A stretch of 64,000 nt of DNA from Gammaproteobacteria bacterium (GTDB lineage: Bacteria > Pseudomonadota > Gammaproteobacteria > JAURND01), in contig JASGJS010000001.1 of assembly GCA_047601185.1 (NCBI GenBank), positions 1,217,305-1,281,304 of the forward strand. The letters are read 5' to 3'. Of this stretch, positions 25,701 through 31,700 are shown one piece after another. The position numbers are program-made. Positions within the stretch are counted from its first letter, which is position 1; each line of letters opens with the position of its first letter.

Positions 25701-28700
25701 GAAACAGTATAGAAAATTTGTTTTTCCCACTCAATACCGTAATTTCTCATGGCTCAGCATTCAGTATATTTAGATTATATGGCGACCACTCCAGTAGATC
25801 CTCGGGTGGCGGAGCAGATGGCCAATTGCTTAACGGCAGCAGACTGTTTTGGGAATCCTGCTTCGCGCAGTCACCGTTATGGTTGGCAAGCTGCAGAAAA
25901 GGTTGAACTCGCGCGCGAAACCGTGGCAGCGTTGATTCACGCCCATCCTGAAGAAATCATTTGGACCTCTGGCGGTACAGAAGCCAATAATCTGGCTATC
26001 CAAGGTGCCGCGCATTTTTATCAACGTCAAGGTAAACACATTGTTACCGTGCAAACCGAACATAAAGCCGTCTTAGATGTTTGTAAATTCCTAGAACAAG
26101 AAGGGTTTGAGGTTACGTATTTAAAGCCCCTGCCCAATGGCTTAGTCGATTTATCTGCTTTAAAACAAGCATTACGCTCCGATACTTTACTCGTTTCCGT
26201 GATGCATGTGAATAATGAAATCGGCGTGATTCAGGATATTGCTGCGATTGGGGCCATTACGCGCGCCGCGGGCGTATTATTGCATGTCGATGCGGTACAA
26301 AGCGTCGGCAAACTGCCCATCAATGTCCAACAGATGTCGATAGACTTGTTATCACTTTCCGCGCATAAAGTCTACGGCCCCAAAGGCATTGGCGCTTTAT
26401 ATGTTCGCCAAAAACCGCGCATTCACTTGCAACCTTTAATCGTAGGCGGAGGGCAAGAACGCGGATTACGCTCTGGCACTTTGCCGACGCATCAAATTGT
26501 GGGGATGGCGGAGGCATTGACTTTAGCCAATGCAGAAATGGCGACAGAAACGCAGCGATTATTGGCATTGCGAGAGTTGTTGTGGGCAGGGCTTGCGGCT
26601 TTAGGGGATTGTGTGATCAATGGGGATAGGCAACAGCGATGGGCGGGGAATCTCAATGTGAGTTTTATAGGGGTTGATGCGGGGGCTTTATTACAAGCCT
26701 TACCTGATATTGCGCTGTCAGCCGGTTCGGCGTGCACTTCGGGTCAGTTGAGTCCTTCACATGTGTTGTTAGCGCTGGGTTTGCCGGAATCTAGAGTGAG
26801 GAGCGCTATTCGATTTTCACTGGGGCGGTATACTACTGAAGCTGAGATTCAGTATGTGGTTGAAAGGGTGGGTGAGGCTGTAGGACAATTGAGATCGTGA
26901 TATGAGTTTTCCCCCTCATCCGCCTATCGGCACCTTCTCCCACGGAGGGGAGAAGGCCCCACATCAAGCTTCAAGCGTTTCTCAAGCTTCAAACATTCTC
27001 AAGCTTCAAGCGTTTCTCAAACCTCAAGCATTTCTAAGCGCTTAGCTGCGCTTAAAAGCTTTAGATTTTAGATTGGAAGCCCCTCAATGCTTGACGATAG
27101 CATAAACTTGAATGAGGCTCGAGCCTGGGAGCGCGGGCAGCTTGCCCGCTTAAAAGCTTTAGATTTTAGATTGGAAGCCCTTCAATGTTTGACGACAGCA
27201 TAAACTTGAATGAGGCTCGAGCCTGGGAGCGCGGGCAGCTTGCCCGCTTAAAAGCTTTAGATTTTAGATTGGAAGCCCCTCAATGCTTGACGATAGCATA
27301 AACTTGAATGAGGCTCGAGCTTGGGAGCGCGGGCAGCTTGCCCGCTTAAAAGCTTTAGATTTTAGATTGGAAGCCCTTCAATGTTTGACGACAGCATAAA
27401 CTTGAATGAGGCTCGAGCCTGGGAGCGCGGGCAGCTTGCCCGCTAAAAAAATCAAATCTTTTGTTTTGGCTCTAACTCTGGTAACTCATCTAAAGGATCA
27501 TGATTTAATGTAAATGAAGCAGAACTATCATCAATGCGAAGCTGCTTATCAAAAAAACTTATTTTTGAATCCGCAAGCAATGTAGATTCTGGGCTCAGTA
27601 AAGGAGGTTTGGAAGTACTTTTGGAGGCAGGATCTAAAAACATTTCGTTTACAGCCGCTCTTTCGTGTAGAGTCTGCTTCAAATCCTTAATAAAATCTTT
27701 ACCCGAATCAAAATCTATCCCCTTATATTCAGGTGCAAATCGAGCAATCAATGCGCGACATACCACCGGCTGAAAAGAAAATTGCTCTTCCCCACCCTGA
27801 TCTCCAAAAAAATTTTCATTTCCAAGAATTTGTGGGATAGAGGTAAAGCCTTTTGGGGCTGGGGTAGTCCGCAGTTGCGTTCTTAAATTCTCAGCACGTT
27901 TTTTACCTGAACTGGTGATTAAATCTGCGGTACGTGATTGATAGTTTGCTAAGTATTGTTTAGCGGCATCAATCAACAACTGTTTAAATTCAGCGAGTGG
28001 CATGGCTTCGAGGCCTTTCACAATTTTGTCTTTTATGATTTTATACTCTTCTTTATTGGCGCGCGCTGTTTTAGTTTCGTAAATTTCGGCCAATCTTTTT
28101 TGTGCAAGCGCATCACCTTGCTCAGCTGCCAGTTGATAATAATAGGCTGCTCGCTTGATATTTTTTTCGACAATTCGCCCTGAATGGTAATAAAGCCCTA
28201 CATTATATTGAGCCCTTGCAATACCTTGATTAGCGGCTAATGTATAAAGTCGTAAAGCTTCTTTGTCATCTTGTTTAACGCCTATCCCTGATTCATAGCA
28301 AACCCCTAAACGATTTTGCGCGCGCGCGTGATTTTGTTGTGCTGCTAATTGATAATAGCGTACGGCTTGTTCGAGATGCTGTCCTATACCAATGCCTTCT
28401 GCATAACAAAGACCTAAATTAAATAGGGCGGGTGCATACTTTTCTTTCGCTGCAGAAAAAAATTTCGAGATACAAAGGCTTTTTACAAGATGCTTACCGG
28501 GGGCGTTTAAGAGGTGGCATGCATAATCATTTTGTACTTTAGGATTACTACTATATTGATCTATTTTTTCCAAGGGGACAGTTAGATCATAATCAAAAGT
28601 GACAGGTGAGGAAGTGATTTTATGCTCAGTGCTCATAACGATGCTCTCGTACAAGGATGTAAAGTTTTGCTTTTTAGCGGGCAAGCTGCCCGCGCTCCCA

Positions 28701-31700
28701 AGTCTTGCGCCATGCATGGTAAAGCGCTAAATGATAGTTTTGTGCTTTCTTAAGTTTTTGTACGAAAAAAACTTCAATGATTGACGATGGCTCTTAGCTC
28801 GAAAAGGCTCGAGTCTGGGAGCGCGGGCAGCTTGCCCGCTAAAAAATCATAAATACTATTTTTTATGAATTCAAAGCACAACGACGACACATGCCATACA
28901 ACGTCAAATTATGATCCAATAATTGAAAACCCGCTTGGGTTGCGATACGATTTTGGCGACGTTCTATTTCTGGATCAATAAATTCTTCCACCGCATGACA
29001 TTGCACACACACCATGTGATCATGGTGATCGCCTTGGGCGAGTTCAAAGACTGAATGCCCGCCTTCAAAATTAAGCCTTTTCACAATGCCGGCTTGTTCA
29101 AATTGCGTCAACACTCGATACACGGTAGCTAAGGCGACATCCTCTTTCGCTTCTAATAAAATTTTATAAACTTCTTCTGCGCTGAGATGGTGAGGGTTAG
29201 CCTGTTCCAAAACCTGGAGGATTTTAACACGAGGCTGCGTGATTTTAAGCCCGGCATCCGTTAAATCTTTAACTTTCATAACCTGGTTGAATCCATTGAT
29301 AAATCTCGGTCACCATAATATCACATTTCTGGCATTGTGTGGCACACTGTGGCGTTTTTAAACATTTCTTGACACGACCTTTACGAACCAACAGCCCCAA
29401 GATATTTTTCAGCACGTGTGGGTCTAATTTAAAATGGATCCTGAGCTGAGCTAAATTGGCTTGCCGATGTTGTTGTAGGTAATGTTGGATATTGGTAATC
29501 AGCATAAGGTGACTCCTAATTTTTTACCGGTTGAGCGGGTGCGTAGGCTCCACTTGAGCCCATAGAAGCCCGCACTGAATGTCAGGACAATACCGAAAAT
29601 CCAAGTGGAGGAAATCCACGGATGGCGGCTCCAGGTCATGGTTTGATAAAATAGCACCGCTGCAGAATAAGCGAGACCTGTGGTCCAAAGTGTGGAAAAA
29701 ACCGCCCAGCGCCAATTAGATTCTCGCATTAAGGCAGCCACCGCTGAAACACAGGGGAAATACAGCAACACAAATAATAAATAAGCTAGCGCACCAATTT
29801 GACCATCAAAATGGCGCATCATCACGCCTAACACGCCAGGAGTGACTTGCGCATCGGCACTGCTGGCCGCAATCGGGTTGCTAAAACTGTCTTTCAAGGC
29901 GATCCATTGAGCCGGAATGGAGGTCACTGCATCTTTGAGTTCTCCCCACACATCGGTTGAGGATGTGTCAGTCGAAACCAAATGGCTGGTTTGAGTGTAT
30001 AGCGTGTTTAAGGTTCCAACCACCACTTCTTTGGCTAAAACCCCGGTTAATAATCCTACAGTGGCTGGCCAATTATCTGCCTCAATCCCCATCGGCGCAA
30101 ACACCGGGGTAATCTTTTTTCCGAGGGTGGATAATGCAGAACTGCTATTGCTGTTATTAATGTCTAATGTCCCATTGAGCTGGATGGCATTTAAAAAGCT
30201 GACAAATAGACAAATGGGGATAATGAGCTTACCGGCTTTAAAAAGAAATTGGTGTAAACGATGCCAAGTTTGGCGCAGAATCATCCGGAATCTGGGAACA
30301 TGATAAGGCGGCAATTCAATAATCCACGGTGAACAATCGCCCTGCAAAGCAGTTTTTCGCAATAACCATCCGGTCATCACGGCCATCAGAATGCCCATGA
30401 TATAAAGCCCAAACACAATATTTTGCCCGCCGGTGGGGAAAAAAGCAGCGGTAAAAACCGTATAAATCGCCATGCGTGCGCCACAGGACATAAACGGGGT
30501 CATCATCAATGTCAGTAATCGATCGCGGCGTTGTTCTAAAGTGCGTGTGGCCAAAATAGCGGGGACATTACAACCAAACCCGACGATGAGTGGCACAAAC
30601 GCTTTGCCCGGCAAGCCCAGCCAGCGCATGATCCTATCGACCACAAAAGCGGCTCTCGCCATATACCCTGAACTTTCTAAAATGGCTAAAAATAAAAACA
30701 TGGCGCCAATGACAGGAATAAAAGTCACCACGGTATTAATGCTAGTGCCAAGGCCTACGCTAATGAGCCCAATGAGCCAGGTCGGCGCATGCCAAGCGGT
30801 TAATAATTGCGCAGTCCCTTGAATGAAAACGGCATGGCTCACCCCATCAAAAAATGGTTGTAAAGTGCCGCCGATGTTAATCGAAAAGAAAAACAGCGCA
30901 TAAATCATCATGAAGAAAATGGGGATGCCTAACCAACGATTTAACACGATGCGATCTAATTTTTGGCTAACAGTGGGTTGAGTAGAAGTTTGTTGGATGG
31001 CTTTTTGGCTCAACGCATGGGCAAAGGTATAGCGCGTATCCGCAATTTGGATGTCAGGCTCTAATTCAGGGGGGATTTTAGCCGCCATTTGGAGGTCAGC
31101 AGGCAGTAATTGCTTGGCTAATTCATCCTCCTCTAATAATTGCAGCGCTAAAAAGGGCGCTTGGTTTTTTCTTTGTGGCACCGCTTGATGGATCTGTTGC
31201 GTTAAGTCATTGAGCAGGGTCTGTAGCTGATCTGGGAAGTTGAGATTGGAAACAGCGTGGGTTTTTTGGGTCAGCGCTCGAATGATGTATTGTTTGAGAA
31301 TGGGTTGAGGCTGAGTTGCCGTTACGCCGACTACCGGACAGCCTAAAGTCGCTTGTAGGGCTGCCAAATTCAGTTGAGCCCCTTGTTGAGCGGCGACATC
31401 GAGCATATTCACCACCACCAGCATTGGCATCTGCAGAGCCAGCAATTGCGCGGTTAAATATAAATTACGCTCTAAATTGCTGGCATCTAAGATATTGACG
31501 ATCAGATCGAATTCTTCTGATAGCACGGCTTCGCAGGTGATACGGCTATCAATGCTGCTTTGCTCAGATTGGTAAGTCAGAGTATAGACGCCCGGCAAAT
31601 CGACCACTTCAATTTCCCATCCATCCTGTTTAAAATGGCCGCTATGGCGTTCTACCGTCACGCCAGGCCAATGGCCGACTTTTAAGCGAGAGCCAGTGAG

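What the first reader, a model, noticed from the sequence alone, without database searches (positions are those of the whole stretch)
26961..28845. 4x98-bp tandem array plus inverted partial copies bracketing a Sel1 effector-like gene
A perfect-phase array of four 98-bp units (really two copies of a 196-bp A-B unit) at 27051-27442 is preceded by an 18-bp micro-repeat tract. It abuts the 3' end of the Sel1 gene (27452-28636).

The GGGAGCGCGGGCAGCTTGCCCGCTAAAAA end of the unit recurs on the other side of the gene. One copy is inverted, overlapping the 5' end and reading into the gene. One is direct at 28775-28842.

A gene bracketed by inverted copies of a private repeat looks like a recombination- or transposition-delivered cassette. 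It could also be a set of structured RNA modules that control the gene. The unit contains stable hairpins (GCGGGCA-gct-TGCCCGC).
Basis: seen in the sequence. Interest (0 to 1): 0.5.

Follow-up and report, generated by a model that had tools for sequence, protein, structure and literature searches.

The report
REP palindrome cluster around a Sel1 gene
The repeats are real, but their hairpin end is a widespread bacterial REP-type palindrome that, with 75 bases of local flank, was copied in tandem beside a Sel1 gene, which is a known and fairly ordinary kind of intergenic repeat cluster.

Summary
A 98-bp x 4.1 array lies at 27049-27449 in an A-B-A-B pattern. An 18-bp microrepeat precedes it. The 30-nt end TGGGAGCGCGGGCAGCTTGCCCGCTAAAAA recurs inverted at 28671-28700 and direct at 28816-28845, on the far side of the Sel1 gene (27452-28636, minus strand).

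The repeat is only half private. Its 23-nt core is found exactly in more than 94 stretches of other genomes and is multi-copy in at least nine MAGs of Pseudomonadota and Chloroflexota. There it mostly forms inverted doublets 15-23 nt apart, like REPINs, and one MAG has head-to-tail arrays. The 75-nt non-hairpin part matched nothing in any DNA fetched.

Best reading: a REP-type palindromic unit plus its flank was amplified by local tandem duplication between convergent genes, and a tail-to-tail REP pair sits in the fur-Sel1 spacer. Tandem REP arrays of this kind are published for Pseudomonas fluorescens SBW25 and other genomes.

I found no support for a transposed Sel1 cassette: no transposase, no target duplication and ordinary composition. 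I found none for a known RNA family either: no Rfam hit and no promoter or terminator consensus. Neither is excluded. Copy number in the rest of the genome and presence of a RAYT transposase could not be tested. Interest is low.

The parts
26901..26988 (+). Copy of a second, dispersed ~130-nt repeat family (CCCCCTCATCCGCCTATCGGCACCTTCTCCCAC-loop-GGGGAGAAGG...), directly after the iscS-like stop codon. Its right part is replaced by the microrepeat.
   Evidence: 88-nt, 84% inverted match to 3207-3294, plus at least 8 family copies in the window. Alignment A2.
26964..27039 (.). 18-bp microrepeat tract (TCAAGCTTCAAGCGTTTC x 4.3, or 35 bp x 2).
   Evidence: TRF. The repeat finder family D4.
27049..27449 (+). 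Head-to-tail array of 4.1 units of 98 bp, in an A-B-A-B pattern. Each unit is a 75-nt flank that matched nothing in the DNA fetched, followed by the REP core.
   Evidence: The non-REP part has no match in any fetched locus.
27125..27149 (+). REP unit 1: tag CTGG, then GAGC, then the hairpin GCGGGCA-GCT-TGCCCGC.
27223..27247 (+). REP unit 2.
27321..27345 (+). REP unit 3, with tag variant TTGG.
27419..27449 (+). REP unit 4, with the TAAAAA tail. On the minus strand its hairpin starts 8 nt after the Sel1 stop codon (27452-27454).
27452..28636 (-). Sel1-repeat protein gene, 394 aa. Three Sel1 repeats lie in the N-terminal half. The C-terminal ~170 aa have no homologue other than the protein itself.
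   Evidence: Pfam PF08238, E 9e-30. P0001 = MFT3742257.1. All other hits cover only residues up to about 220.
28671..28700 (-). Inverted REP copy, in the same sense as the Sel1 coding strand, ending 34 nt upstream of the Sel1 ATG.
   Evidence: sequence.
28772..28845 (+). Older, diverged copy of the right ~70 nt of the array unit, ending in a perfect REP (28816-28845).
   Evidence: Non-REP last 45 nt are 30/45 identical; the REP is 24/24. BLAST blocks.
28671..28845 (.). Tail-to-tail REP pair: 30-nt perfect inverted arms with 115 nt between them, in the fur-Sel1 spacer.
   Evidence: Pair I5. Minus-strand RNA fold has a 32-bp stem, -91 kcal/mol, z -8.4.

Best explanation
This is a cluster of REP-type (repetitive extragenic palindrome) units.

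Shown:
- The unit is a 7-bp GC stem with a 3-nt loop, preceded by a conserved CTGG-GAGC tail.
- The same 23-nt core is multi-copy in many other genomes, mostly as inverted doublets of the REPIN type.

Inferred history at this locus:
- One REP together with about 75 nt of adjacent private sequence was duplicated.
- The two copies diverged at 3 sites, giving units A and B.
- The 196-bp A-B dimer was then duplicated again, with one substitution since. The mechanism would be unequal recombination or replication slippage.
- This produced a 98-bp minisatellite between the convergent iscS-like and Sel1 genes.
- An older, diverged copy of the same module and a lone inverted REP form a tail-to-tail pair between fur and Sel1.
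- The REP parts stay 100% identical while the flanks have drifted to about 67%. So the REP is either under constraint or homogenised by gene conversion.

Inferred function (from what is published for REPs, not tested here):
- Mostly selfish or neutral DNA with side effects on RNA.
- Stable hairpins at the 3' ends of both convergent transcripts could act as barriers to 3' exonucleases. They are not intrinsic terminators.
- One hairpin lies 8 nt after the Sel1 stop codon.
- A long stem is possible in the Sel1 leader.
- The array is expected to vary in copy number between strains.
For: - The array, its A-B-A-B pattern and the identities are measured.
- All six cores lie in intergenic DNA, between convergent genes (iscS-like / Sel1) and unidirectional genes (fur / Sel1). 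Di Nocera et al. 2013 report this placement as typical for REPs (PMC3733652).
- The exact 23-mer occurs in more than 94 stretches of other genomes. These include dozens of contigs of one Chloroflexaceae MAG and 9-10 loci each in two Gammaproteobacteria MAGs.
- Across those copies the tag is CTGG in 100 of 141. Inverted head-head doublets with 15-23 nt spacers dominate in those two Gammaproteobacteria MAGs.
- A third gammaproteobacterial MAG (AS02xzSISU_62) has head-to-tail arrays of 55 bp x 3.4 with the same core.
[quoted passage not shown] Tandem REP arrays with alternating spacings occur in P. fluorescens SBW25 (PMC3116915).
- Hairpin energy is -12 kcal/mol as RNA and -8.3 as DNA.
Against: - In 64 kb the core occurs only at this one locus, while another repeat family is dispersed at 8 or more sites. 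A genome-wide REP population in this organism is therefore not shown.
- The tag is CTGG/TTGG, not the GTAG or CGTC of the described REP superfamilies (PMC3733652).
- No RAYT gene was found in the window or in the 94 fetched loci. The link to a tyrosine transposase is assumed by analogy.
- The canonical short inverted doublet is absent here.
- No transcript data exist, so every functional effect is inference.
Confidence: 0.7

Rival explanations
1. The Sel1 gene is a cassette brought in, or removable, by recombination between repeat copies. In this model a circle carrying Sel1 plus one repeat module integrated into a chromosomal module. That leaves direct repeats on both sides, and the gene can be lost again by the reverse event. 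The array then grew afterwards.
For: - 42-nt direct repeats (41/42 identical, sharing the same CTAAAAAA junction) at 27409-27450 and 28805-28846 bracket the 1396-bp Sel1 segment (family D2).
- 30-nt perfect inverted copies also bracket the coding sequence (pair I4).
- The gene is lineage-specific: nothing else matches its C-terminal half.
- The DNA downstream of iscS is a synteny breakpoint. folK-pilin-iscS is kept in a relative with 68% identical IscS (pilin-iscS in another), but different genes follow.
Against: - No integrase, transposase or Y1/HUH gene in the window.
- No target-site duplication.
- The flanking modules are only about 67% identical outside the REP, so any such event is old.
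- GC and GC3 of the gene are ordinary for this window.
- REPs are known to accumulate on both sides of genes without moving them.
- The relatives are too distant (68% or less) to show an empty site.
Confidence: 0.12
2. The repeats are cis-acting RNA elements that set Sel1 expression. The sense REP in the leader pairs either with the antisense copy upstream or with the antisense copies in the 3' UTR array. This gives about 30 bp of perfect double-stranded RNA, a substrate for RNase III. Array copy number would then tune the effect.
For: - 30/30 complementarity between 28671-28700 and each of 28816-28845 and 27420-27449.
- The fur-Sel1 spacer folds into a 32-bp stem on the Sel1 sense strand (-91 kcal/mol, z -8.4).
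- The only promoter-like site for Sel1 (28874-28846, minus strand, 9/12) would start transcription inside the upstream arm.
- A hairpin lies 8 nt after the stop codon. In E. coli, REPs within about 15 nt of a stop codon lower expression of the upstream gene (Liang, Rudd and Deutscher 2015, from my own knowledge, not read here).
Against: - No transcript evidence.
- No Rfam family.
- No orthologous loci, so no covariation test is possible.
- The duplex does not cover the ribosome-binding site or the start codon.
- The unit as a whole folds no better than shuffles.
- The same complementarity arises automatically wherever REPs sit in opposite orientation.
Confidence: 0.1
3. Each 98-bp unit is an independent small-RNA gene, making a tandem sRNA array like PrrF1/PrrF2, ended by the GC hairpin.
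For: - Unit length of about 100 nt.
- Each unit ends on the plus strand in a strong hairpin followed by a U-containing stretch (UUAAAAGCUUUAGAUUUU).
- The location next to a fur-feo operon.
Against: - No sigma-70-like promoter within any unit and no terminator-like site.
- No Fur box near the array: the best Fur-box matches are at 50339 and 56015.
- No Rfam hit.
- The non-REP part has no homologue in any fetched DNA.
- Fold z-score is only -0.9 on the plus strand.
Confidence: 0.04

Closest known systems
Tandemly repeated REP/REPIN arrays of Pseudomonas fluorescens SBW25 (Bertels & Rainey 2011, PMC3116915)
   Same: - Head-to-tail arrays of nearly identical REP sequences together with their flanking sequence.
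- Alternating module lengths or types (GI/GIII at 112 and 72 bp), comparable to the A-B alternation here.
- Intergenic location.
- Thought to form by a second mechanism, duplication rather than transposition.
   Different: - Here there is a single REP type with two near-identical unit variants.
- Only about 4 units.
- A different core sequence and tag.
- The host genome's REP population and RAYT are unknown.
GTAG-/CGTC-tagged REP families and their HH, TT and HT dimers and clusters (Di Nocera et al. 2013, PMC3733652)
   Same: - A 6-9-bp GC stem with a 2-3-nt loop.
- A tag separated from the stem by unpaired bases, as in their GTAG-1 and GTAG-2 families.
- Placement between convergent or unidirectional ORFs.
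- Clusters made of singletons reiterated in tandem with flanking DNA.
- A tail-tail dimer.
   Different: - The tag is CTGG/TTGG, which is not among the degenerate forms they list (GYAG, GYRG, GTRG, GTMG, GTGG).
- The TT spacing of 115 nt is just above their usual 20-100 nt.
- They report head-to-tail arrangements as rare.
REPINs mobilised by RAYT tyrosine transposases (PMC3337134, PMC3116915)
   Same: In other genomes the same 23-nt core forms the defining inverted doublet with a 15-23-nt spacer.
   Different: - No such doublet exists in this window.
- The only inverted pairs are 115 nt apart (tags inside) or 1221 nt apart (tags outside, with Sel1 between them).
- No RAYT was seen.
E. coli BIMEs (bacterial interspersed mosaic elements); from my own knowledge and as cited in PMC3116915
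   Same: Higher-order intergenic clusters of REP units with conserved linker motifs. They are often at 3' ends of genes and affect mRNA stability.
   Different: BIME REPs alternate in orientation, with short defined linkers. Here the units are all direct and the linker is 75 nt.
Neisseria intergenic mosaic elements (NIMEs: ~50-150-bp RS units bounded by 20-bp dRS3 repeats); from my own knowledge
   Same: Tandem intergenic modules of about 100 bp, each bounded by the same short palindromic repeat, next to variable surface or host-interaction genes.
   Different: Unrelated sequences. dRS3 is a recombination or integration target with known partners, and nothing comparable is shown here.

Membership tests
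REP (repetitive extragenic palindrome) | A short (20-60 bp) unit with an imperfect palindromic core able to form a stem-loop. | tested here: met
   GCGGGCA-GCT-TGCCCGC, a 7-bp stem. Energy is -12 kcal/mol as RNA and -8.3 as DNA.
REP (repetitive extragenic palindrome) | Extragenic, mainly between convergent or unidirectional ORFs. | tested here: met
   All six copies are intergenic: iscS-like(+)/Sel1(-) are convergent and fur(-)/Sel1(-) are unidirectional.
REP (repetitive extragenic palindrome) | Many copies dispersed around the host genome. | tested here: inconclusive
   Six copies, all in one 1.8-kb locus, and none in the other 62 kb. The rest of the 1.71-Mb contig was not available. The same core is multi-copy in at least 9 other genomes.
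REP (repetitive extragenic palindrome) | A conserved terminal tetranucleotide, GTAG or CGTC (Di Nocera superfamilies). | tested here: not met
   The tag is CTGG (5 copies) or TTGG (2) here. It is CTGG in 100 of 141 copies elsewhere, and GTAG or GTGG in only 5.
REP (repetitive extragenic palindrome) | A cognate RAYT (Y1/HUH, PF01797) gene in the genome. | not testable with these tools
   None in the window or fetched loci by motif search, Pfam on 25 of the window's ORFs, or tblastn with a probe recalled from memory.
REPIN | Two REPs in inverted orientation with a short spacer, forming one hairpin of about 70-110 nt. | tested here: not met
   Present in other genomes (head-head, 15-23-nt spacers). 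In the window there is only a tail-tail pair 115 nt apart and a head-head pair 1221 nt apart.
Minisatellite / VNTR | Head-to-tail repeats of a 10-100+ bp unit at high identity. | tested here: met
   98 bp x 4.1, 96% matches.
Minisatellite / VNTR | Copy number differs between strains. | not testable with these tools
   No second strain was found. The exact proteins are not on record, there were 0 metagenome hits to the unit/REP junction, and no orthologue of the Sel1 gene exists.
CRISPR array | Identical short repeats separated by unique spacers. | tested here: not met
   The 75-nt stretches between hairpins are themselves 94-100% identical.
Intrinsic terminator | A GC hairpin followed at once by a U tract. 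| tested here: not met
   No terminator-like site at any REP on either strand. The T run precedes the hairpin on the minus strand.
Composite transposon / MITE-borne cassette | Terminal inverted repeats, a target-site duplication and a matching transposase. | tested here: not met
   30-nt inverted arms are present. No duplication of flanking bases. No transposase in the window.
Any Rfam RNA family | A match to a covariance model. | tested here: not met
   0 matches at E <= 1 over 26700-29000, both strands.

The most novel reading that the evidence does not exclude
The perfectly matched REP copies around Sel1 form a switch or rheostat for a host-interaction gene, in one of two ways:
- At the RNA level, the leader REP pairs with antisense copies upstream or in the 3' UTR array to give 30 bp of double-stranded RNA, with array copy number tuning the output.
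- At the DNA level, the 30-bp inverted copies (27420-27449 and 28671-28700) allow inversion of the whole Sel1 coding segment away from its promoter, or the 42-bp direct copies allow its excision.

Separately, the CTGG-tagged core shared unchanged by distant phyla could mark a REP superfamily not yet described, with its own transposase.
Probability: 0.07. Interest if true: 0.55.

Novelty: new member of a known kind. Interest (0 to 1): 0.2.

Why it matters
Taken at face value it matters little. It adds one more example of REP units amplified in tandem with flanking DNA, in an uncultured Legionellales-like bacterium.

It has practical value as a likely variable-number marker for strain typing. 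It also warns annotators that the longer Sel1 ORF, which reads through a REP, is probably wrong.

Two side points could interest specialists. First, an identical 23-nt REP core with a CTGG tag, not GTAG or CGTC, is shared by Chloroflexota and Gammaproteobacteria, although REPIN-RAYT systems are described as mostly vertically inherited (abstract of the RAREFAN preprint). Second, perfect 30-42-nt repeats bracket a lineage-specific Sel1 gene, which predicts inversion or loss of that gene between strains.

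Tried and rejected
- Exact-protein look-ups of Sel1 (both starts), Fur and P0001 found no contig. Neither the rest of the genome nor other strains could be read.
A longer, unit-specific pattern would have been the better choice.
- A metagenome scan with the unit/REP junction gave 0 hits.
- A metagenome scan with the Sel1 protein gave 44 loci, all matching only the Sel1 repeats. 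None carried the core.
- The core gave 0 hits in IMG/VR.
- The 111-nt unit query, which includes the core, gave only one chance-level hit in PLSDB (E = 3).
- Literature searches for the motif returned only human-gene papers.
- The RAYT hunt was negative. It used HUH/Y-motif regexes, ORFs flanked by REPs, Pfam on 25 window ORFs, and tblastn with an E. coli RayT probe recalled from memory.
- Rejected readings:
  - CRISPR: the 'spacers' are identical.
  - Intrinsic terminators.
  - Coding repeat: the period is not a multiple of 3, and the longest start-codon-initiated ORF inside the array units is 38 aa.
  - Fur-regulated sRNA array: no Fur box and no promoter.
  - Compositionally foreign island.
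- Synteny with the nearest IscS relatives (65-68% identity) was too distant to reveal an empty site.

Full report
**1. What is in the sequence**

- The iscS-like gene (25749-26900, +; Aminotran_5, E 1.7e-89) and the Sel1-repeat gene (27452-28636, -; PF08238, E 9e-30) converge on a 551-bp spacer.
- From left to right the spacer holds three things:
  - A copy of a dispersed ~130-nt repeat family at 26901-26988 (88 nt, 84% complementary to 3207-3294; at least 8 copies in the window).
  - An 18-bp microrepeat x 4.3 at 26964-27039.
  - A 98-bp x 4.1 array at 27049-27449 (96% matches, score 746).
- The aligned units show A-B-A-B. Unit 2 equals unit 4 (98/98), unit 1 vs unit 3 is 97/98, and A vs B is 94-95/98.
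- Each unit ends in CTGGGAGC-GCGGGCA-GCT-TGCCCGC. The hairpin is worth -12 kcal/mol as RNA.
- The 23-nt core occurs six times in the window, against 0 expected, and all six lie between 27127 and 28839.
- On the other side of Sel1 lie two more copies. One is inverted at 28671-28700. One is direct at 28816-28845, and it ends an older copy of the unit's right ~70 nt: 30/45 identical outside the REP and 24/24 inside it.
One correction applies.
  - The inverted copy sits 34 nt upstream of the ATG at 28636.
  - That is the start NCBI uses (P0001, 394 aa, 100% identity).
  - It also has a GAGAG Shine-Dalgarno-like motif upstream.
  - The copy overlaps only the longer ORF from 28717.

**2. Where the window comes from**

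- The Sel1 protein is MFT3742257.1, from a MAG labelled Gammaproteobacteria bacterium, on a 1.71-Mb contig.
- The window also encodes IcmF- and DotU-family proteins, four Sel1-repeat proteins (one with a U-box) and an ankyrin protein. This fits a Legionellales-like intracellular bacterium rich in eukaryote-like proteins.
- Its IscS is at most 68% identical to anything on record, and 65% to a Coxiellaceae MAG.
- No second strain or close relative could be found.

**3. The hairpin end is not private**

- The core is multi-copy in at least nine MAGs:
  - Chloroflexaceae H28_384, on dozens of contigs.
  - Two uncultured Gammaproteobacteria, with 9-10 loci each.
  - An Ardenticatenaceae MAG, a Methylococcaceae MAG and others.
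- Across 141 copies with up to 3 mismatches, the four bases spanning the core's 5' end (two upstream bases plus its first GG) read CTGG in 100.
- The usual arrangement in the two copy-rich Gammaproteobacteria MAGs is two inverted cores with tags outward, 15-23 nt apart. This is the REPIN-type doublet.
- In each genome the core sits inside a longer, genome-specific element.
- One gammaproteobacterial MAG (AS02xzSISU_62) has head-to-tail arrays of 55 bp x 3.4.
- By contrast, the 75-nt non-REP part of the unit, the 115-nt inner part of the upstream pair and the microrepeat match nothing in any fetched DNA.
- The core is absent from IMG/VR.
- The 111-nt unit query, which includes the core, gave only one chance-level hit in PLSDB plasmids (E = 3).

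**4. Comparison with what is published**

- Di Nocera et al. 2013 describe REPs as follows (PMC3733652):
  - Stems of 6-9 bp with loops of 2-3 nt.
  - A terminal tag.
  - Placement mainly between convergent or unidirectional ORFs.
  - Head-head, tail-tail and head-tail dimers.
  - 'Large REP clusters... [quoted passage not shown]
- Bertels and Rainey 2011 describe highly ordered tandem REP arrays in P. fluorescens SBW25, including arrays with alternating 112- and 72-bp spacings. They attribute these to a mechanism other than transposition (PMC3116915).
- The present array is a small example of that arrangement.
- It departs from the described superfamilies in its tag, which is CTGG/TTGG rather than GTAG or CGTC.
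- I could not show the two other hallmarks in this organism: a dispersed population and a RAYT gene.
  - The core occurs nowhere else in the window.
  - No RAYT-like ORF was found in the window or the fetched loci.

**5. How it most likely arose and works**

- Shown: the sequence relationships above.
- Inferred origin:
  - A REP plus its flank was duplicated.
  - The copies diverged at three sites.
  - The dimer was duplicated again recently.
- The REP parts of all copies are identical while the flanks of the older copy have drifted to about 67%. This suggests constraint or gene conversion acting on the REP.
- The REPs are not intrinsic terminators, and the array holds no promoter-like site.
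- There is no Rfam match.
- The unit as a whole folds no better than shuffled sequence (z -0.9 and -1.9).
- By analogy with other REPs, the likeliest effect is protection of the 3' ends of the two convergent mRNAs.
- The last hairpin begins 8 nt after the Sel1 stop codon. In E. coli that spacing reduces expression of the upstream gene (Liang et al. 2015, from my own knowledge).
- The tail-to-tail pair would fold into a 32-bp stem on the Sel1 sense strand (-91 kcal/mol, z -8.4). This requires transcription to start at or above the only promoter-like site, 28874-28846.

**6. Rival readings**

- Cassette model.
  - For: 42-nt direct repeats (41/42) and 30-nt inverted repeats bracket a lineage-specific gene at a synteny breakpoint.
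  - Against: no mobility gene, no target duplication, ordinary GC and GC3 (0.404 and 0.313, against window means of 0.421 +/- 0.046 and 0.382 +/- 0.071), and old divergence of the flanking modules.
- The cis-RNA model rests only on complementarity that any oppositely oriented REPs would show.
- The sRNA-array model lacks a promoter, a Fur box and homologues.

**7. Verdict**

This is a real but ordinary feature: a REP-type palindrome cluster with a tandemly amplified module. It is a new member of a known kind. Interest is low at 0.2. A small chance (about 0.07) remains that the perfect repeats around Sel1 act as an expression or inversion/excision switch.

Noticed in passing
window 110-187, 3005-3111, 3207-3294, 18905-19014, 24540-24660, 24678-24756, 26901-26988, 40988-41065, 49924-50038: A second, dispersed intergenic repeat family of about 130 nt (CCCCCTCATCCGCCTATCGGCACCTTCTCCCAC-loop-GGGGAGAAGG...TTTAAGTGTTTCCTCTTAGTTCAC...). 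It often occurs as inverted pairs and is far more frequent in the window than the REP studied here.
   Followed up: partly
loci L001-L094 (genome contigs): The identical 23-nt core, with a CTGG tag rather than GTAG or CGTC, is multi-copy in MAGs of both Chloroflexota and Gammaproteobacteria. Single hits occur in Planctomycetota, Acidobacteriota, Verrucomicrobiota and Myxococcota. I found no paper that mentions the motif.
   Followed up: partly
L031 4685-4872; L060 837-940; L086 4409-4490: The gammaproteobacterial MAG AS02xzSISU_62 carries head-to-tail arrays (55-59-bp period) of the same core. This is the closest parallel to the window's array.
   Followed up: partly
window 10534-12177, 12742-14715, 19031-22941, 32092-33024, 61041-63587: Gene content typical of an intracellular Legionellales-like bacterium: IcmF plus DotU, three further Sel1-repeat proteins (one fused to a U-box) and an ankyrin-repeat protein. 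The feoABC-fur operon has a Sel1 gene on each side.
   Followed up: partly
window 27452-28636 (protein residues ~220-394): The C-terminal ~170 residues of the Sel1 protein have no homologue other than the protein itself in the 5.8-billion-protein search or in metagenome contigs. The extreme C-terminus (DPLDELPELEPKQKI) is rich in acidic residues.
   Followed up: partly
window 50333-50357 and 56015-56033: The best Fur-box matches in the window (17/19 and 16/19). The first lies just upstream of the ORF 50368-50976, which is followed by a DUF1152 gene. No Fur box lies near Sel1 or the array.
   Followed up: no
window 52580-52767 / 56055-56243; 56289-56358 / 63519-63588; 58411-58525 / 63584-63698: Three pairs of near-identical (94-99%) direct duplications of 64-128 nt in the right third of the window. 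Some overlap gene ends.
   Followed up: no
window 46673-47944 (-): A 423-aa ORF with GC 0.26 and GC3 0.22, far below the window mean of 0.42, next to PAS histidine-kinase genes. It may be recently acquired.
   Followed up: no
window 12370-12478: A 33-bp x 3.3 in-frame tandem repeat (89% matches) inside the ORF 12215-12667.
   Followed up: no
window 37885-38029 and 50111-50303: Two further strong local inverted repeats: 35-nt arms at 97% with a 75-nt gap, and 64-nt arms at 83% with a 65-nt gap, both in intergenic DNA.
   Followed up: no
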